Shown one piece after another: positions 5,359 to 54,877 of a stretch of 64,000 nt of DNA. This DNA comes from Oscillospiraceae bacterium (GTDB taxonomy: Bacteria > Bacillota > Clostridia > Oscillospirales > Acutalibacteraceae): the NCBI GenBank assembly GCA_902780565.1, contig CACZGD010000014.1:1977-65976 (forward strand). The letters run 5' to 3'. A model generated the notes under the pieces. It made no database searches. It was given only the letters and a program-made list of their open reading frames with translations, and was not told the DNA's origin. Each line of letters opens with the position of its first letter. The stretch's first letter is position 1. Position numbers and translations under genes: made by a program.

Positions 5359-6464
5359 AAAAGATCCTTGTGACCGGCCCGAAGGACCCGCCAGGCGGCG
5401 TGGAACGGGTGTGCCTGGAATATATCCGCCGCATGCAGGCGGCAAACGACCTGCAATTCGATATCCTGATCACGGGGGAGGGCTTCTCCCTCGCGCCGGC
5501 TTTTGAGGAGCTCGGGTGCCGCGTCCTGTATCTGCCGTCCCGCAGACGGGACCCCGCCGGCTACCGCAAAGGGCTTGCAGCCATTATTAGGGACGGCGGC
5601 TACGACGCGGTGTGGGCGAACGTGAGCGGCCTGACGAACGTGGACGTGCTGCGCGAAGCGAAAAAGTACGGCGTGAAGACCCGCATCGTCCACAGTCACG
5701 TCGCCTCACTGTCCTGGAGCGGCGCGCTCATGCGCGTGCTGGTGCCCCTGCTGCATGCGAAGAACAAACGAAAGATCGATCGGCTTGCAACCGATTTCTG
5801 GGCCTGCTCCGAAACCGCGGGACGCTTCATGTTCCCGGCGCGCGTACAGGACCGGCTGGTCGTGCGCCGTAACGCCGTGGATACCGCGGCGTTTTTGCCG
5901 GACGAAAAAAAACGCGCCGAGACCCGCGCCGCGCTGGGGCTGACAGACGCTTTCACCGTGGGGCACGTGGCAAGGCTGTGCAGGGAAAAGAACCAGCCGT
6001 TTTTGCTGGAGGTCTTTGCCGCCATACAAAAAAAGGACCCGACGGCGCGTCTGCTGCTGGTGGGAGACGGCGAAGCGCGGCAGATGCTGGAAGCGCAGAT
6101 CGAAGCGCTGTCTCTTTCCGACGCCGTGATCATGACCGGGACGCGCACGGACGTTGCCGCGCTGCTGAACGCCATGGACGTGTTCGTGTTCCCCTCCTTC
6201 AAGGAGGGCCTGGGACTCAGCGTGATCGAAGCCGAAGCCGTGGGGCTGCCCTGCGTGGTCTCCGACGGCGTGCCGCGGGACGTGGACCTGACCGGGAACG
6301 TTTCGTTTTTGTCCCTTGCCGACTCCCCCGCGCGCTGGGCGACTGAGATTCTGGAAAAGAAAAATGCGCGGATGACCGGGACCGCCGACGCGCTGAAGCG
6401 CGCCGGTTACGACCTGGACGCCGCTGCCGCCGAACTGCGGACGTTTTTTGAGGACCTGCCATGA
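5355..6464 (+). CDS. glycosyltransferase family 4 (group 1)
   Basis: 369 aa. The C-terminal FVFPSFKEGLGLSVIEAEAVGLPCVVSD matches the GT4 E-x7-E region. The start overlaps the upstream stop. Confidence 0.8.
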   Translation: MKKILVTGPKDPPGGVERVCLEYIRRMQAANDLQFDILITGEGFSLAPAFEELGCRVLYLPSRRRDPAGYRKGLAAIIRDGGYDAVWANVSGLTNVDVLREAKKYGVKTRIVHSHVASLSWSGALMRVLVPLLHAKNKRKIDRLATDFWACSETAGRFMFPARVQDRLVVRRNAVDTAAFLPDEKKRAETRAALGLTDAFTVGHVARLCREKNQPFLLEVFAAIQKKDPTARLLLVGDGEARQMLEAQIEALSLSDAVIMTGTRTDVAALLNAMDVFVFPSFKEGLGLSVIEAEAVGLPCVVSDGVPRDVDLTGNVSFLSLADSPARWATEILEKKNARMTGTADALKRAGYDLDAAAAELRTFFEDLP

Positions 6465-7537
6465 AAACTGCCATTGTGACCTTTGCCGATTCCGTGAACT
6501 ACGGCGCCGCTTTGCAGGCGGCGGCGTTATCCCACGCCGTGACGGCGCTGGATGAAGCGCCGATGTTTTTGACCCATCATAACGAAACAATCGCCGCGGG
6601 GGACCGGCTGTTTGACCTGAAAAGCGCGAAGAACCCGCTGTATACCGCCGCGCACCTTGTGAATTTCACCGCCGCGAAGGAGCGGCAGAAGCGCTTCGCC
6701 GCCTTTCGGAACCGTTTCCTGCGCTTTTCGGACGAGGCACCGGACAGCTTCGACGTGGTGATCGCGGGCAGCGACCAGGTGTGGAATTACAACCTCACCG
6801 GGGACGACGATTTTTATTATCTGGATTATAAAAAGGCGAAGTCCGTCAAAACCGCGTATGCCGCGAGCTTCGGGCTTTCCGCCGTGGACCCCGCAAGAGA
6901 AGCGCGCCTTGCCGCCCTGCTGCGGGATTTCGACTTCGTGACCGTGCGGGAGGAGACCGCCGCCGGAATCGTGGAAACGCTGACGGGCAGCCGCCCCGCC
7001 GTGGCGCTGGACCCGACCTTTTTGCTGACGCCCGCCGACTGGGCAGCGAAGAGCGCCGACACCGGCAAGAAAAACGAAGACTATATTTTCGTATATACCG
7101 TGTTCAACAGCGAGCCCCTTTGGGCGTTCGCCGAGGACCTCAGCCGCAGGACCGGGCTGCCGATCAGAACCGTGAGCTATTCAAAGCTCCACCGCCATAA
7201 CGCGGACTACAGCTTTTCCGCCGGACCGGACGAATGGGTGGAGCTGATCGCAAACGCAAGCTACGTGGTCACGAATTCCTTCCACGGCCTCGCGTTTTCC
7301 GTCAATTTCAACCGCCCCTTCTTTATCGCGCTGCCGCCCGAAAGTGCCGGCGTCGGCTCGCGCCTCAGGGACCTTGCGAAACGATACGACCTGACGGACC
7401 GGGAGATCGGCGTCGCCGACCCCGCCGCCATTCCGGATTTTGCCGCCGTGAACGAAAAGCTGGACCGTGACCGAAGGGAAAGCCTGCACCTGCTGGCGGA
7501 AATCCTGCGCACCGGGAAATCGGAGGCAAGCAAGTGA
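6461..7537 (+). CDS. polysaccharide pyruvyl transferase family protein
   Basis: 358 aa. It carries NYGAALQAAAL...VIAGSDQVWN...TNSFHGLAFS, the motifs I associate with the PS_pyruv_trans (CsaB/WcaK-like) family. Confidence 0.75.
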   Translation: MKTAIVTFADSVNYGAALQAAALSHAVTALDEAPMFLTHHNETIAAGDRLFDLKSAKNPLYTAAHLVNFTAAKERQKRFAAFRNRFLRFSDEAPDSFDVVIAGSDQVWNYNLTGDDDFYYLDYKKAKSVKTAYAASFGLSAVDPAREARLAALLRDFDFVTVREETAAGIVETLTGSRPAVALDPTFLLTPADWAAKSADTGKKNEDYIFVYTVFNSEPLWAFAEDLSRRTGLPIRTVSYSKLHRHNADYSFSAGPDEWVELIANASYVVTNSFHGLAFSVNFNRPFFIALPPESAGVGSRLRDLAKRYDLTDREIGVADPAAIPDFAAVNEKLDRDRRESLHLLAEILRTGKSEASK

Positions 7538-52557: not shown

Positions 52558-52806
52558 ATGAATCATCTGCTGCTGTTGCTGATCCCCACGGGGATCGTCG
52601 TGTTGCTCTACGCGTTTCGGAAAGTCCGGCTGCGCCACCTGCTGCTCTCCGCCATGTCGGGGCTGCTGGCGCTGATCGCTGCGGACTTCGTCTGCTCGTT
52701 CTTTTCGTTCAACCTGCCGCTCAACGCCCTGTCGCTCGGCATGGCTGCCGTGGGCGGGATCCCGGGCGCGATTTTGTATAACGTGCTGGCGGTCATTTTC
52801 GCCTGA
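52558..52806 (+). CDS. bofA: pro-sigma-K processing inhibitor BofA family protein
   Basis: 82 aa with two TM helices and a GGAAGGAGG SD. The C-terminal LPLNALSLGMAAVGGIPGAILYNVL resembles B. subtilis BofA (...INLVTTAISGILGIPGIAALV...). Confidence 0.72.
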   Translation: MNHLLLLLIPTGIVVLLYAFRKVRLRHLLLSAMSGLLALIAADFVCSFFSFNLPLNALSLGMAAVGGIPGAILYNVLAVIFA

Positions 52807-52821
52807 TCAAAAAAAACGCGC

Positions 52822-53895
52822 TCAGAAGAGCACGTTTTTATAACACACCATCGGTTCGTTTTTGTCGTAGTTCCAGCTATGCGCGGCGTCGCCGCGGCAG
52901 AAGGGCAGGTCGGGGCAGGCGCGGCAGGTTTCGTTCCTTTCGCCGAGATTTCCCCGGAAGATCCCGAACCCCTGCTTCCACACGTCCGAAAACCGGTCGG
53001 TTTTCACGTTGCCGAACACCGTTTCGGGACGGCGCTCGATATCCAGGCACGCGCCAATATCGCCGTTCGCCATGATGGAGGCGGTGTAGACCCCGGCGTT
53101 GCACAGCCAGTACCAGTCCCGCACCTCGGCCTCGTACCCGAGCCCCAGATAGTGCGAGCAGCCGTATTCCACGGGGTACCCCGCCCGGCGCTTTTCGCGC
53201 GTGAAATCCATCAGCGTGCGCACGTCCCCGGGGGTCAGCATCAGATCGGGGCGGGACAGCGCCCGTCCGATGGGCTCCAGCGCCGCCACGCGCCAGGAAT
53301 CGATATCGATCCCGCGCATCACCTCGAACAAGGCTTCCAGCTCCCGGATGTTTTTGTGGTTGAACACCGTGGTGATCTGCACCGCATCGAACGCGTTTTC
53401 GTCGATCAGGTTCTGTACGCCGCGCATGGCGCGTTCATAGCCGCCCCGCATCCCGCGCAGCTCGTCGTGGGTCTCCGGTAGGCCGTCGATGGAAACGGAG
53501 ATCGTGCGCATGCCCGTTTCCCGCAGCCTGTGCGCGGTCTCTTTGTCGATCAGCGTGGCGTTGGAGGTCATGCCCCAGACGAAGCCGAGGTCCTTTGCCG
53601 TGCCCATGATCTCAAAAAAGTCGCGCCTGAGCAGCGGTTCGCCGCCGGTGATGCACAGCATCAGCCCCTCGGTGCCGAAATCGGCCTTGACCTCCTCTAA
53701 AATGCGGCGGTAGTCGGCTGCCGTCAGGCTTTCGTCGCCCTCATAGGTGCAGTTGGAGCCGCAGTGGAAGCAGTTGGCGTTGCACCGGAGCGTGAGCTCC
53801 AGAAACAGGTGACGGAGCTTCGGCTCGCGGCAGAGCTTTTCGTGATACGCGGCAAGCTGCGTCAGATGCCGTTCCTTGATCGTTTTCATGGTCAT
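52822..53895 (-). CDS. radical SAM enzyme with C-terminal SPASM/twitch-type auxiliary cluster domain
   Basis: The CxxxCxxC motif is in LELTLRCNANCFHCGSNC, with ITGGEPLLR downstream. The C-terminal Cys pattern is CNAGVYTASIMANGDIGAC...CRACPDLPFC. The ATG at 53895 overlaps the upstream stop (ATGA); an alternative ATG is at 53889. The track ORF extension to 54093 overlaps the upstream gene. Confidence 0.8.
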   Translation of the reverse strand: MTMKTIKERHLTQLAAYHEKLCREPKLRHLFLELTLRCNANCFHCGSNCTYEGDESLTAADYRRILEEVKADFGTEGLMLCITGGEPLLRRDFFEIMGTAKDLGFVWGMTSNATLIDKETAHRLRETGMRTISVSIDGLPETHDELRGMRGGYERAMRGVQNLIDENAFDAVQITTVFNHKNIRELEALFEVMRGIDIDSWRVAALEPIGRALSRPDLMLTPGDVRTLMDFTREKRRAGYPVEYGCSHYLGLGYEAEVRDWYWLCNAGVYTASIMANGDIGACLDIERRPETVFGNVKTDRFSDVWKQGFGIFRGNLGERNETCRACPDLPFCRGDAAHSWNYDKNEPMVCYKNVLF

Positions 53896-54326
53896 TCCCT
53901 CGCGGCGGTCGTGGGCGGCGGGCCGTAGAGCGGCGCGGCGGTATTTTCCTCCGGCACGAAGGCGGTGGAGAGCTCCGCTGCATCCTCTTTCGTCACGTCC
54001 GGCGGACCGTAGAGCGTGGGAGCCTCGTTCTCCTCCGGGGAGAAGTCGGAGGGCGCGTCGGCGGTCTCCTCCTGCTCCTGCGACGTGAACCACTCCGGCG
54101 GTCCGTACAGCGCCACGTTTTCATTATCGGACGCGTCGAACCAGTCGGGCGGCCCGTAGACGTCCTCCTGCACGTTCGTCCCGGGGTCAAAGGAACCGGG
54201 GTCCGTCGGCGGCGGGCCGTACAGACTCTCCTGCACGTTGCAGCCGGGCAGCAGAACGGCGGAGGCGGCGACGCCCCCGGCAAGGATCGCGGCAGCAGTG
54301 CGCCTGCTGGGCTTTCTCGGTTTCAT
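53892..54326 (-). CDS. secreted (lipobox-like LPGC) acidic protein with five N-x4-[ILV]-YGPP repeats
   Basis: The start MKPRKPSRRTAAAILAGGVAASAVLLPGC follows an AAGGAG SD. The repeats are CNVQESLYGPP, TNVQEDVYGPP, DNENVALYGPP, ENEAPTLYGPP and ENTAAPLYGPP. Confidence 0.65.
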   Translation of the reverse strand: MKPRKPSRRTAAAILAGGVAASAVLLPGCNVQESLYGPPPTDPGSFDPGTNVQEDVYGPPDWFDASDNENVALYGPPEWFTSQEQEETADAPSDFSPEENEAPTLYGPPDVTKEDAAELSTAFVPEENTAAPLYGPPPTTAARE

Positions 54327-54458
54327 ACGTACGCTCCTTTCGGTTTTCTCTTCCGGTTTCAGTGTATCACACTTTCCGCGGTCCGTCAAGTAGACCGGCA
54401 AGGAAAAAACAGAACGCCGCGGCAGGCGCGGCGTTCCCGTTTCCATTGACTCAAACGG

Positions 54459-54827
54459 TCATTCCTTCTCGGTTTTCCGGATCCCGCGCGGCGGACCGTA
54501 CAGCGGCACGGCGACGTTGCGGCGCGGATCGAAGGGCGGTTTTTTCGGCGCGGGCGGTACGACCCCGTCCTCGGGCGGCAGCGGAAGACCCGTCTCCGGA
54601 TCGAAGGACGGGCGGGATTCATCCGCCTGCTCTTCACCTTGCAGGATCACGCCGTCGTCCGGCGCGGGCGGTCCGTAAACGTCGATCGGCTCGTTCTCCT
54701 CCGGCTGAAACGCGTCGCCCCCGCGCTTTGCAAGCATCTCCGGCGGACCGTAGATGCAAACGGGCACGTTTTCCTTCGGCGCAAACGCCTTCTTTTTCTT
54801 GGGCGCGAATATGCCCTTCAGACGCAT
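54459..54827 (-). CDS. small basic/Pro-rich protein with three N-x4-[ILV]-YGPP repeats, no signal peptide
   Basis: 122 aa with an AGGAGG SD 8 nt upstream. The repeats are ENVPVCIYGPP, ENEPIDVYGPP and RNVAVPLYGPP. Confidence 0.6.
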   Translation of the reverse strand: MRLKGIFAPKKKKAFAPKENVPVCIYGPPEMLAKRGGDAFQPEENEPIDVYGPPAPDDGVILQGEEQADESRPSFDPETGLPLPPEDGVVPPAPKKPPFDPRRNVAVPLYGPPRGIRKTEKE

Positions 54828-54848: not shown

Positions 54849-54877
54849 ATCCTACCATACACACGGAAGAAAGTCAA
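54849..54877 (-). promoter_or_regulatory. sigma-A type promoter for the YGPP/radical SAM unit
   Basis: The minus strand reads TTGACT-17 nt-TAGGAT with a TGn extended -10. It lies downstream of the tuf terminator. Confidence 0.5.

What the first reader, a model, noticed from the sequence alone, without database searches (positions are those of the whole stretch)
53892..54827. An invariant 10-residue unit N-x4-[ILV]-Y-G-P-P occurs 8 out of 8 times across two adjacent ORFs
The copies, read directly from the translations, are:
- ENVPVCIYGPP
- ENEPIDVYGPP
- RNVAVPLYGPP
- CNVQESLYGPP
- TNVQEDVYGPP
- NENVALYGPP
- NEAPTLYGPP
- NTAAPLYGPP

In every copy an Asn sits exactly six residues before the Tyr, an aliphatic residue precedes the Tyr, and Gly-Pro-Pro follows. 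The spacers between units are acidic, variable in length and otherwise unconserved. Conservation of only this unit argues for selection on a recognition or modification motif rather than simple low complexity.
Basis: seen in the sequence. Interest (0 to 1): 0.7.

Follow-up and report, generated by a model that had tools for sequence, protein, structure and literature searches.

The report
Repeat motif targeted by radical-SAM enzyme
The repeated N-x4-[ILV]-Y-G-P-P unit is real, and it is almost certainly the site where the neighbouring radical-SAM enzyme chemically modifies two small proteins, one of them a cell-surface lipoprotein, in a two-gene module shared by hundreds of gut and rumen bacterial species whose chemistry has not been tested.

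Summary
All 8 YGPP in the six-frame translation of the window lie in two minus-strand ORFs (54459-54827 and 53892-54326). Each has Asn at -6 and I/V/L at -1. Every Tyr of both proteins sits in a unit.

ORF2 overlaps (ATGA) a 357-aa radical SAM/SPASM gene (52822-53895). The link holds in both directions. Of 75 enzyme homologues from different species (Clostridia, Erysipelotrichaceae, Coriobacteriia), 72 have a YGPP-repeat gene adjacent. Of 31 metagenome contigs found by the motif alone, 29 carry the enzyme just downstream. No third gene is conserved. Natural enzyme-motif fusions exist.

The enzyme is a divergent relative of TIGR04133 ("rSAM/lipoprotein system"). Relatives closer to that model sit beside tiny lipoproteins with KYGPP. 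So x-Y-G-P is the shared core, and Asn(-6) and Val(-1) are features of this clade.

The favoured chemistry is tyramine excision at X-Y-G (splicease-like), giving ketoamide residues on a surface-anchored protein. This is inferred, not shown. Other Tyr-centred chemistry, such as a Y-G-P cyclophane, is not excluded. I could not read Scott et al. 2022, which may already list this family.

The parts
54459..54827 (-). ORF1: 122-aa protein with no signal peptide, a basic N-terminus and 3 N-x4-[IVL]-YGPP units. It is a predicted substrate of the radical SAM enzyme.
   Evidence: RBS AAGGAGG lies upstream (read). The same 122-aa gene is called on an identical contig. An orthologue stands before the lipoprotein gene in L001/L073.
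54741..54770 (-). ORF1 unit 1, NVPVCIYGPP
54666..54695 (-). ORF1 unit 2, NEPIDVYGPP
54489..54518 (-). ORF1 unit 3, NVAVPLYGPP
54849..54877 (-). Promoter-like site upstream of ORF1 (consensus match only)
54411..54437 (-). Terminator-like hairpin (11-bp stem followed by a T run) between ORF1 and ORF2
54361..54389 (-). Promoter-like site upstream of ORF2 (consensus match only)
53892..54326 (-). ORF2: 144-aa acidic protein with an N-terminal signal peptide ending in LLPGC (lipoprotein-type Cys29) and 5 units. The first unit begins at the residue after the Cys. It is a predicted substrate.
   Evidence: Homologues are mostly short lipoproteins.
54240..54326 (-). Signal peptide and lipobox-like LLPGC of ORF2 (residues 1-29)
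   Evidence: read from the translation; homologues carry LTGC, MSGC or LPGC at the same place
54210..54239 (-). ORF2 unit 1, NVQESLYGPP
54147..54176 (-). ORF2 unit 2, NVQEDVYGPP
54096..54125 (-). ORF2 unit 3, NENVALYGPP
54000..54029 (-). ORF2 unit 4, NEAPTLYGPP
53916..53945 (-). ORF2 unit 5, NTAAPLYGPP
52822..53895 (-). Radical SAM/SPASM enzyme, 357 aa. Its start codon overlaps the ORF2 stop (ATGA). It is the predicted modifying enzyme.
   Evidence: Pfam Radical_SAM and SPASM. Best NCBIfam match is TIGR04133 at 262 bits, below the 425 cutoff. The gene pair is conserved.
53761..53784 (-). CNANCFHC, the CxxxCxxC motif of the radical SAM cluster (residues 38-45)
   Evidence: invariant in alignments A1 and A3
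52843..53103 (-). SPASM region with conserved Cys265, 283, 324, 327, 333 and 351 (residues 265-351)

Best explanation
ORF1 and ORF2 are substrate proteins of the radical SAM/SPASM enzyme encoded right after ORF2. Each [FY]-D-P-x-x-N-x4-[VLI]-Y-G-P-P unit is a self-contained recognition and modification site.

The enzyme has no separate leader-binding (RRE) domain. In size and fold it resembles the anaerobic sulfatase-maturating enzyme. So it should read the short linear motif directly and act on each copy in the cytoplasm. ORF2 would then be exported and lipid-anchored, which displays an acidic, proline-rich, unstructured chain with five modified sites on the cell surface. ORF1 has no signal peptide and is a second substrate.

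The chemistry I think most likely is that of spliceases. A tyramine equivalent is cut out of the Tyr of X-Y-G and the backbone is rejoined. [quoted passage not shown] The product would be a surface-tethered protease trap with several warheads.

Shown: the motif, the gene pair, how widely the pair is conserved, and the type of enzyme. Inferred: that Tyr-Gly is the reactive site, the splicing chemistry, and the protease-inhibitor role.

My sub-confidences:
- substrate of the adjacent enzyme: about 0.9
- Tyr-Gly is the reactive centre: about 0.75
- tyramine splicing: about 0.45
- protease inhibition: about 0.3
For: Gene pair:
- ATGA overlap of ORF2 and the rSAM gene.
- 4 of 4 contexts of distant motif proteins, in unrelated neighbourhoods, have the rSAM/SPASM gene immediately after. 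One of these is a DUF805 fusion.
- At least 568 species genomes encode a relative of the enzyme. In 75 of the 80 best loci with enough flank, 68 have YGPP ORFs just upstream and 4 just downstream. There is almost no YGPP elsewhere in the flanks.
- Starting from the DNA pattern for VYGPPEWF[DE] alone, 29 of 31 metagenome contigs with at least 1.5 kb downstream carry the enzyme on the same strand.
- No other gene family recurs. The next most frequent is in 10 of 80 loci.
- Natural fusions of enzyme plus one 'DNMPAVIYGPPEML' or 'TLYGPPP' unit exist (P0251, P0252).

Enzyme:
- Radical_SAM and SPASM domains with conserved cluster cysteines.
- The nearest structures are peptide- or protein-modifying SPASM enzymes: SkfB, anSME (TM 0.68-0.72 relative to the target), CteB, SuiB, PqqE and ChlB.
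- At 357 aa there is no extra N-terminal domain.

Tyr-Gly as the core:
- Relatives nearer TIGR04133 sit beside lipoproteins with KYGPP.
- A deltaproteobacterial relative sits beside LYGPMP, MYGPP and LYGV repeats.
- Tyr in the family occurs only as x-Y-G-P-P or as the F/Y of the Y-D-P element.
- The residue before Tyr differs by clade (V/L/I, K, L/M) while Y-G stays. This fits X supplying the side chain of the product.

Splicing:
- Spliceases are rSAM/SPASM enzymes that act on XYG, including LYG, with a nearby Pro in the known tags (PIRPLYGLPI).
- Two-component systems without a Y protein are widespread. They were found by looking for YG-rich ORFs beside rSAM-SPASM genes.
- The ketoamides inhibit elastase, chymotrypsin and cathepsin B (PMC11414181, PMC10533398, PMC11626197, PMC10849128).

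Surface display: the repeats are carried on interchangeable anchors, namely a lipobox, a Tat-like signal plus lipobox, a DUF805 membrane domain, or a dockerin.
Against: - No experiment, and no mass data.
- The enzyme is not a member of the PlpX splicease family. It scores 117.6 bits on TIGR04103 against a cutoff of 725, no better than on AhbD, NirJ or MftC models.
- I had no sequence of a validated non-cyanobacterial splicease to compare with.
- Splicing explains the invariant Y-G but not the near-invariant P-P or the Asn(-6). These must then be recognition elements.
- The AlphaFold model of a natural enzyme-motif fusion did not place the motif confidently. The tail has pLDDT 40-56.
- Some substrates, including ORF1 and the zinc-ribbon forms, have no export signal. 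So 'surface trap' cannot be the whole story.
- The protease-inhibitor role rests on analogy plus one serpin neighbour.
- ORF2's LLPGC has Pro at -2, which is not a textbook lipobox.
Confidence: 0.45

Rival explanations
1. Same enzyme-substrate pair, different radical chemistry on the motif. One option is a three-residue cyclophane or other C-C/C-O crosslink between the Tyr ring and Pro(+2), with Y-G-P read as the aromatic-X-X motif of triceptides. Other options are Tyr beta-carbon oxidation, or epimerisation of Val(-1) or Tyr. Any of these would stiffen the surface chain or make it resistant to proteases.
For: - P(+2) and P(+3) are as conserved as Y-G in most clades. Chemistry that involves Pro would explain this directly.
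- Triceptide precursors also carry repeated three-residue motifs and use rSAM/SPASM enzymes (my own knowledge of the field).
- The triceptide enzyme ChlB is among the structural neighbours (ranks 19-20).
- The enzyme is no closer to the PlpX splicease model than to other SPASM families.
Against: - In degenerate units P(+2) is replaced (YGVP, YGAP, YGVD) while Y-G persists.
- An invariant Gly after the aromatic residue is the hallmark of splice sites, not of triceptides, where the middle residue varies (my own knowledge).
- I know of no Tyr-Pro crosslink made by a radical SAM enzyme.
Confidence: 0.33
2. The unit is a ligand motif, not a modification site. On this view it is a proline-rich docking peptide for a partner protein or for the cell wall, and the radical SAM gene is linked for another reason, for example because it matures that partner.
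For: - The sequence is proline-rich, acidic and probably disordered.
- The repeats come on various anchors, as adhesion modules do.
- No modification has been observed.
Against: - The only conserved neighbour is the enzyme.
- The two genes overlap.
- Enzyme-motif fusion proteins exist.
- Forms without a signal peptide exist.
- The nearest structural relatives of the enzyme all act on peptides or proteins.
Confidence: 0.07
3. Asn(-6) is a chemical partner. The enzyme would link Asn(-6) to Tyr(0) and form a seven-residue macrocycle in each unit.
For: - The spacing is exact in 8 of 8 units here and N is at -6 in 80% of 628 units.
- Asn beta-carbons are used in crosslinks by other radical SAM enzymes, such as the one for dynobactin (my own knowledge).
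Against: - N(-6) is replaced by E or D in 8% of units, and by other residues too.
- Whole proteins have no N at -6 in any of their units (for example P0030, P0072, P0090, P0096).
- N is absent from the KYGPP lipoproteins and the LYGPMP repeats that sit beside related enzymes.
Confidence: 0.05
4. Plain low-complexity linker sequence or a chance repeat, with no specific function.
For: Biased composition (about 14% Pro and 12% Glu in the small homologues).
Against: - Shuffles give 0.01 YGPP per ORF against 3 and 5 observed.
- The repeat is conserved at the protein level but not the DNA level.
- The same motif sits beside the same enzyme in three bacterial classes.
Confidence: 0.01

Closest known systems
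TIGR04133 'rSAM/lipoprotein system' radical SAM/SPASM family (NCBIfam/TIGRFAMs hypothetical equivalog, function unknown)
   Same: - It is the best HMM match over the full length (E 6.5e-78).
- The architecture is the same, with a lipoprotein gene adjacent.
- Proteins that JGI names 'radical SAM enzyme (rSAM/lipoprotein system)' also sit beside lipoproteins that carry x-Y-G-P-P.
   Different: - The score is 262 bits against a cutoff of 425. No relative I tested reached the cutoff (best 394).
- The substrates here are longer, with 3-7 units and the added F-D-P-x-x-N and V(-1) features, instead of two KYGPP in a protein of about 55 aa.
- This clade is spread among rumen and gut Clostridia, Erysipelotrichaceae and Coriobacteriia.
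Spliceotides and tyramine spliceases (PlpX/PlpA, PcpX, RhaX/RasX; Morinaka 2018, Scott 2022)
   Same: - rSAM/SPASM enzyme next to a precursor with conserved, often multiple, X-Y-G sites.
- X is hydrophobic (LYG, MYG).
- Pro lies close to the site.
- Two-component systems without a Y protein are known.
- Proteins, not only peptides, can be substrates (PMC11414181, PMC10533398, PMC11626197).
   Different: - Not a member of TIGR04103/IPR026482 (117.6 against 725 bits).
- No Nif11/NHLP leader, no recognisable leader at all, and no peptidase or exporter.
- The substrate stays attached to the cell as a lipoprotein or membrane protein.
- P-P after Y-G and N at -6 are not features of the known splice tags.
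- The chemistry here is untested.
Anaerobic sulfatase-maturating enzyme (anSME)
   Same: - About 360-370 aa, radical SAM plus SPASM, with no RRE domain.
- It has the best TM-scores relative to the target among the structural neighbours (0.68-0.72).
- It modifies whole proteins at a short Pro-containing linear motif in the cytoplasm before they are exported.
   Different: The substrate motif (C/S-x-P-x-R) and the chemistry (Cys/Ser to formylglycine) do not apply, since the units have no Cys or Ser at a fixed place. There is one site per sulfatase, against 3-7 repeated sites here.
Triceptides (three-residue cyclophane-forming rSAM/SPASM enzymes, e.g. ChlB/ChlA)
   Same: Repeated short motifs that begin with an aromatic residue; an rSAM/SPASM maturase; ChlB among the structural neighbours.
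   Different: The middle residue is invariant Gly and the third is Pro, which is unlike the known motifs. The known systems have leader peptides that the enzyme binds.
Mycofactocin maturase MftC (acts on the C-terminal Val-Tyr of MftA)
   Same: An rSAM/SPASM enzyme acting on a Val-Tyr pair. TIGR03962 is among the better secondary HMM matches.
   Different: MftC needs a C-terminal Tyr carboxylate, and here Tyr is internal. Val is not conserved in the sister clades (K, L or M instead).

Membership tests
TIGR04133 rSAM/lipoprotein-system radical SAM/SPASM protein | HMM score at or above the curated cutoff (425 bits) | tested here: not met
   262.1 bits, E 6.5e-78, full-length match
TIGR04133 rSAM/lipoprotein-system radical SAM/SPASM protein | Radical SAM CxxxCxxC core plus a C-terminal SPASM domain | tested here: met
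   PF04055 and PF13186 above threshold; conserved Cys38/42/45 and Cys265/283/324/327/333/351
TIGR04133 rSAM/lipoprotein-system radical SAM/SPASM protein | Encoded next to a small lipoprotein gene | tested here: met
   ORF2 has a signal peptide plus LLPGC and overlaps the enzyme gene; same arrangement in L091 and L093
Spliceotide / tyramine splicease system | rSAM enzyme with a SPASM domain | tested here: met
Spliceotide / tyramine splicease system | Conserved X-Y-G site(s) in the adjacent precursor | tested here: met
   8 of 8 units are [IVL]-Y-G. In small homologues 290 of 398 Tyr are followed by Gly, and most of the rest are the Y of the Y-D-P/Y-N-P element.
Spliceotide / tyramine splicease system | Enzyme belongs to the PlpX family (TIGR04103 / IPR026482) | tested here: not met
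   117.6 bits against a cutoff of 725. Other splicease types exist according to PMC11414181, but no sequences were available to test against.
Spliceotide / tyramine splicease system | [quoted passage not shown] | not testable with these tools
   Needs co-expression and mass spectrometry
Spliceotide / tyramine splicease system | Activating helix supplied by a Y protein or by the precursor leader | tested here: inconclusive
   There is no third conserved gene and no leader region in the substrates. The AlphaFold model of a natural fusion gave no confident contact.
Triceptide (three-residue cyclophane) system | Repeated aromatic-X-X motif beside an rSAM/SPASM enzyme | tested here: inconclusive
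   Y-G-P fits the pattern formally. ChlB is a structural neighbour, but no closer than SkfB, anSME or CteB.
Triceptide (three-residue cyclophane) system | -2 Da crosslink between the aromatic ring and the beta-carbon of the third residue | not testable with these tools
   Needs MS/NMR
Anaerobic sulfatase-maturating enzyme | Substrate motif C/S-x-P-x-R | tested here: not met
   The units contain no such motif
Bacterial lipoprotein (ORF2) | Signal peptide ending in a lipobox [LVI]-[ASTVI]-[GAS]-C | tested here: inconclusive
   ORF2 has a basic n-region, a hydrophobic core and LLPGC. Pro at -2 is not canonical. Many homologues carry canonical LTGC, MSGC or LAGC at the same position.

The most novel reading that the evidence does not exclude
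A cross-phylum, horizontally spread two-gene module of gut and rumen anaerobes builds non-proteinogenic residues into proteins that stay on the cell. The carriers are lipoproteins, DUF805 membrane proteins and dockerin-bearing cellulosome proteins. The residues would be either backbone ketoamides, which would make this the first surface-anchored, multi-warhead 'spliceo-protein', or a Tyr-Gly-Pro-centred chemistry not yet described. The effect would be a chemical shield or trap against proteases at the cell surface, not a secreted peptide natural product.
Probability: 0.35. Interest if true: 0.8.

Novelty: new variant of a known kind. Interest (0 to 1): 0.62.

Why it matters
Radical SAM/SPASM enzymes are mostly studied as makers of small secreted peptides. 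Here the same machinery appears to work on proteins that remain anchored to the cell. At least 568 species-level genomes encode a relative of the enzyme, and the best matches are mostly rumen and gut organisms, including the cultivable cellulose degrader Ruminococcus flavefaciens FD-1.

If the sites become ketoamides, these bacteria carry built-in covalent protease inhibitors on their surface and in their cellulosomes. That would bear on survival in the protease-rich gut. It would also supply leader-free, 10-16-residue splice tags for protein engineering.

If the chemistry is something else, it is a new protein modification with a very clean recognition motif. Either way the test is direct: one co-expression and one mass spectrum.

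Tried and rejected
- Pfam and NCBIfam on ORF1 and ORF2: no family matched.
- DNA tandem-repeat search: nothing. The repeat exists only at the protein level.
- N-glycosylation sequon at Asn(-6): rejected. None of the 8 units has S or T two residues after the Asn.
- Sequence search of the PDB with the enzyme and with its family profile: only generic SPASM relatives, and no splicease structure.
- AlphaFold of the natural enzyme-motif fusion P0251:
  - Without an alignment the model was unusable (pLDDT 42).
  - With a 46-sequence alignment the enzyme was confident (mean pLDDT 84). The tail that carries YGPP was not (40-56), so nothing could be learned about docking.
- Literature:
  - No hit for TIGR04133, or for YGPP with radical SAM, or for spliceotide with lipoprotein.
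  - The whole-word YGPP search gave 4 unrelated papers.
  - One search on 'SPASM' was swamped by cardiology papers.
  - The single hit for TIGR04134 turned out to be a label for a type IX secretion (T9SS) type B C-terminal domain, unrelated to this system.
  - Scott et al. 2022 (Chem 8:2659) and Vagstad et al. 2024 are not held. So I could not check whether this family is among their 939 predicted or 27 validated spliceases.
- My recollection that the lipoprotein partner family is TIGR04134 could not be verified and is not used.
- Look-up of the Methanocella relative P0489: not on record.
- Mycofactocin-like chemistry on Val-Tyr: rejected, because Tyr is internal and Val is not conserved in the sister clades.
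Full report
**1. The observation**

The region holds two minus-strand ORFs. ORF1 is 54459-54827 (122 aa). ORF2 is listed mechanically as 53892-54446. A six-frame scan of the whole window finds exactly eight YGPP, all in these two ORFs. Each has Asn six residues before Tyr and I/V/L just before Tyr.

Composition-preserving shuffles give 0.01 YGPP per ORF, with a maximum of 2 in 100,000, against 3 and 5 observed. Every Tyr of both proteins is in a unit, and 8 of 9 Asn are at -6. There is no tandem repeat at the DNA level, and the units use different synonymous codons. The repeat is therefore maintained at the protein level.

An independent gene call on an identical contig gives the same 122-, 144- and 357-aa products. 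ORF2 then has a signal peptide that ends in LLPGC, and its first unit begins at the residue after the Cys. ORF1 has no signal peptide.

**2. The partner gene**

The ORF2 stop overlaps (ATGA) the start of a 357-aa gene at 52822-53895. This protein has Radical_SAM and SPASM domains. Its best NCBIfam match is TIGR04133, 'rSAM_w_lipo', at E 6.5e-78 and 262 bits, below the curated cutoff of 425.

Consensus scans suggest that ORF1 has its own promoter-like site and a strong terminator-like hairpin (54411-54437) before a second promoter-like site for ORF2 and the enzyme gene. These are pattern matches only.

**3. The pairing is conserved in both directions**

ORF2 has 157 detectable homologues. They are short acidic proteins of Clostridia with 2-7 units. 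Most are lipoproteins, and some are fused behind a DUF805 membrane domain. Four of four that I looked up, in unrelated neighbourhoods, are followed at once by a 348-364-aa Radical_SAM/SPASM gene.

Starting from the enzyme, a scan of one genome per species found at least 568 loci that encode a relative. The best 80 are 59-81% identical. About 46 come from Clostridia, 15 from Erysipelotrichaceae, Solobacterium or Bulleidia, and 19 from Coriobacteriia. Many of the record titles name rumen or gut samples. Of the 75 loci with enough upstream DNA:
- 68 have YGPP ORFs within 1.5 kb upstream on the same strand.
- 4 have them just downstream.
- 3 have none.
There are almost no YGPP elsewhere in the flanks.

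Starting from the motif alone, the DNA pattern for VYGPPEWF[DE] found 66 metagenome contigs, and 52 of them carry the enzyme. Among the 31 with at least 1.5 kb downstream, 29 carry it. The two exceptions are one syntenic lineage in which the lipoprotein gene stands alone.

Clustering all flanking ORFs shows no third conserved gene. The next most frequent family is in 10 of 80 loci. There is thus no dedicated peptidase or exporter.

A search of 1.8 billion representative proteins found natural fusions of the enzyme with a tail that carries one unit plus a zinc ribbon. These are P0251 ('DNMPAVIYGPPEMLEERG', very like ORF1's first unit 'ENVPVCIYGPPEMLAKRGG') and P0252.

The result is clearly the other way.

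**4. What is conserved, and how far out**

Over 628 distinct units:

| Position | Residue(s) | Frequency |
|---|---|---|
| -11 | F / Y | 46% / 25% |
| -10 | D | 38% |
| -9 | P | 65% |
| -6 | N (E or D) | 80% (8%) |
| -1 | V / L / I | 79% / 12% / 3% |
| +3 | P | 96% |

Units were picked by their Y-G-P, so those three positions are fixed by construction.

In the small homologues Tyr occurs in two contexts only: x-Y-G-P-P, and the F/Y of the upstream Y-D-P element.

Enzymes closer to TIGR04133 (up to 394 bits) are named 'radical SAM enzyme (rSAM/lipoprotein system)' by JGI. They sit beside tiny lipoproteins such as ...AGCRGERENKYGPPVSKYGPPTSYEKKIN. A deltaproteobacterial relative is followed by a lipoprotein-like protein with ADMPQVLYGPMPVD repeats, MYGPP and LYGV.

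So x-Y-G-P is the shared core of a wide enzyme/lipoprotein superfamily, while Asn(-6) and Val(-1) mark the rumen/gut clade. This makes Asn a recognition feature more probably than a chemical partner.

The carriers vary:
- lipobox proteins
- twin-arginine-like signals in Coriobacteriia (MKKLTRRGFTAAGILAA)
- DUF805 membrane domains
- dockerin-bearing proteins in Ruminococcus, including R. flavefaciens FD-1
- lipoproteins with a folded C-terminal domain in some Lachnospiraceae
- forms without a signal peptide, like ORF1, or with zinc ribbons

The repeat region is the constant module and the anchor is interchangeable.

**5. The enzyme**

The CxxxCxxC motif and six further cysteines of the SPASM region are conserved across the superfamily, as is a His after the third cluster cysteine. 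The PDB holds no close sequence relative.

An AlphaFold model with a 46-sequence alignment is confident for the enzyme (mean pLDDT 84). Its neighbours are all peptide- or protein-modifying SPASM enzymes: SkfB, anSME, CteB, SuiB, PqqE and ChlB. anSME has the highest TM-scores relative to the target (0.68-0.72).

At 357 aa the enzyme has no extra N-terminal domain of the kind that binds leader peptides in SuiB or CteB. This fits direct reading of a short repeated motif, as anSME does on sulfatases before they are exported.

**6. Mechanism**

Shown:
- the motif
- the overlapping gene pair
- its conservation in both directions
- the enzyme class
- the export signals

Inferred:
- The enzyme modifies each unit in the cytoplasm. 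Radical SAM enzymes need SAM and a reductant.
- ORF2 is then exported and lipidated, so that an acidic, proline-rich chain with five modified sites is displayed.

The chemistry that best fits an invariant X-Y-G beside an rSAM/SPASM enzyme is tyramine splicing. [quoted passage not shown] Natural sites include LYG and MYG, with Pro nearby (PIRPLYGLPI). Systems of just enzyme plus precursor are widespread, and they were found by looking for YG-rich ORFs next to rSAM-SPASM genes. The ketoamides inhibit elastase, chymotrypsin and cathepsin B (PMC11414181, PMC10533398, PMC10849128, PMC11626197, PMC11002830).

The residue before Tyr differs between clades (V/L/I here, K in Clostridium, L/M in the deltaproteobacterium) while Y-G stays. 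That is what one expects if X provides the side chain of the product. A surface-tethered, multi-warhead protease trap would suit rumen and gut life. The dockerin forms would place it in cellulosomes, and one locus has a serpin gene next door. All of this is analogy.

**7. Against, and rivals**

- The enzyme is not a PlpX-family member. It scores 117.6 against 725 bits on TIGR04103, no better than on haem-synthesis or mycofactocin models.
- I had no sequences of validated non-cyanobacterial spliceases.
- Splicing does not by itself explain the P-P. A Tyr-Pro cyclophane (Y-G-P read as the aromatic-X-X of triceptides) or another Tyr-centred reaction remains possible. Against that, degenerate units keep Y-G while P(+2) changes (YGVP, YGAP, YGVD).
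- An Asn-Tyr crosslink is unlikely, for the reasons given in section 4.
- A pure binding motif is unlikely, given the overlap, the fusions and the lack of any other partner.
- Chance or low complexity is excluded.

**8. Comparison with what is known, and novelty**

The closest catalogued entity is the TIGR04133 'rSAM/lipoprotein system', which has no assigned function. This locus fails its cutoff, but it shares the architecture and the x-Y-G-P-P lipoprotein partner.

Functionally it works most like a two-component spliceotide system, and in logic like anSME (maturation of a whole protein before export). It differs from both in its substrate, which is a cell-anchored, leaderless, multi-repeat protein.

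I found no open-access paper that mentions the bacterial YGPP motif or links spliceases to lipoproteins. Scott et al. 2022 reports 939 predicted and 27 validated splicease systems, as quoted in PMC10533398. I could not read it, and it may already include this family.

I therefore rate the finding a new variant of a known kind, with interest 0.62.

Noticed in passing
window 52560-52806 (+): A small membrane-protein ORF convergent with the radical SAM gene. In the syntenic loci L001 and L095 the gene at this position, on the strand opposite the rSAM gene, is an 82-aa BofA-family protein (PF07441). It is probably unrelated to the module, since it is not conserved next to the enzyme in other lineages.
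   Followed up: partly
L007 3884-5877 (Lachnospiraceae contig; DUF805-YGPP gene at 6001-6726): An ECF sigma factor gene and a serpin (PF00079) gene lie immediately upstream of the DUF805-YGPP/rSAM pair. A protease inhibitor as neighbour is suggestive, but this is a single case.
   Followed up: no
proteins P0253, P0257, P0261, P0265: Relatives of the enzyme at 40-44% identity are fused to a C-terminal domain of about 200 aa. In three of them (P0253, P0261, P0265) it shows a JAB/MPN-like H-x-H-P...S-x-x-D signature. This is a sister system in which a metallopeptidase-like domain is attached to the radical SAM enzyme. Their substrates were not examined.
   Followed up: no
P0251 and P0252; P0118: YGPP units occur next to zinc-ribbon motifs (CxxC...CxxC) in proteins with no signal peptide. 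In two cases they are fused to the enzyme itself. This points to a cytoplasmic class of substrates, to which window ORF1 (without a zinc ribbon) seems related.
   Followed up: partly
L035, L040, L050, L063-L065 and other Coriobacteriia loci: The substrates in Coriobacteriia start with MKKLTRRGFTAAGILAA. This looks like a twin-arginine (Tat) signal followed by a lipobox, so a different export route from the Clostridia versions is possible.
   Followed up: no
L083, L086, L090 (Ruminococcus, including R. flavefaciens FD-1): Here the YGP[PM] units are scattered through larger secreted proteins that contain dockerin-like DxNGDGxVDxxD segments. Several such genes are clustered upstream of the enzyme.
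   Followed up: partly
L074, L077, L081, L088 (Lachnospiraceae): The enzyme gene comes first. It is followed by two to four lipoprotein genes with only one or two units right after the lipobox (C-G-V-YGPP...NIAQPEYG[VA]PYY). In some of them a globular domain of unknown family, about 180 aa long, follows.
   Followed up: no
L080, L082, L089 (Lachnospiraceae): Orphan enzyme genes (59-60% identical) with no YGPP ORF within 4 kb. Conversely, L108 and L146 have a YGPP lipoprotein with no enzyme nearby. Pairing in trans evidently occurs.
   Followed up: partly
L091 3638-3999 (Clostridium swellfunianum): Two of the three tiny KYGPP lipoproteins examined give weak, sub-threshold matches (E 0.005 and 0.18) to NF058595 'lipo-invert putative C-terminal anchoring domain'. 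The matches run across the signal-peptide region and may be spurious.
   Followed up: no
window 54530-54600 (ORF1 residues 74-92): ORF1 contains what looks like a decayed unit, SFDPETGLPLPPEDGVVPP. It keeps the F-D-P start but has lost both the Asn and the Y-G.
   Followed up: no
locus table: Enzymes from Coriobacteriia (Actinomycetota) are 62-67% identical to the Clostridia enzyme of the window, as similar as many Clostridia versions are to it. This suggests horizontal spread of the module within rumen and gut communities. No tree was built.
   Followed up: no
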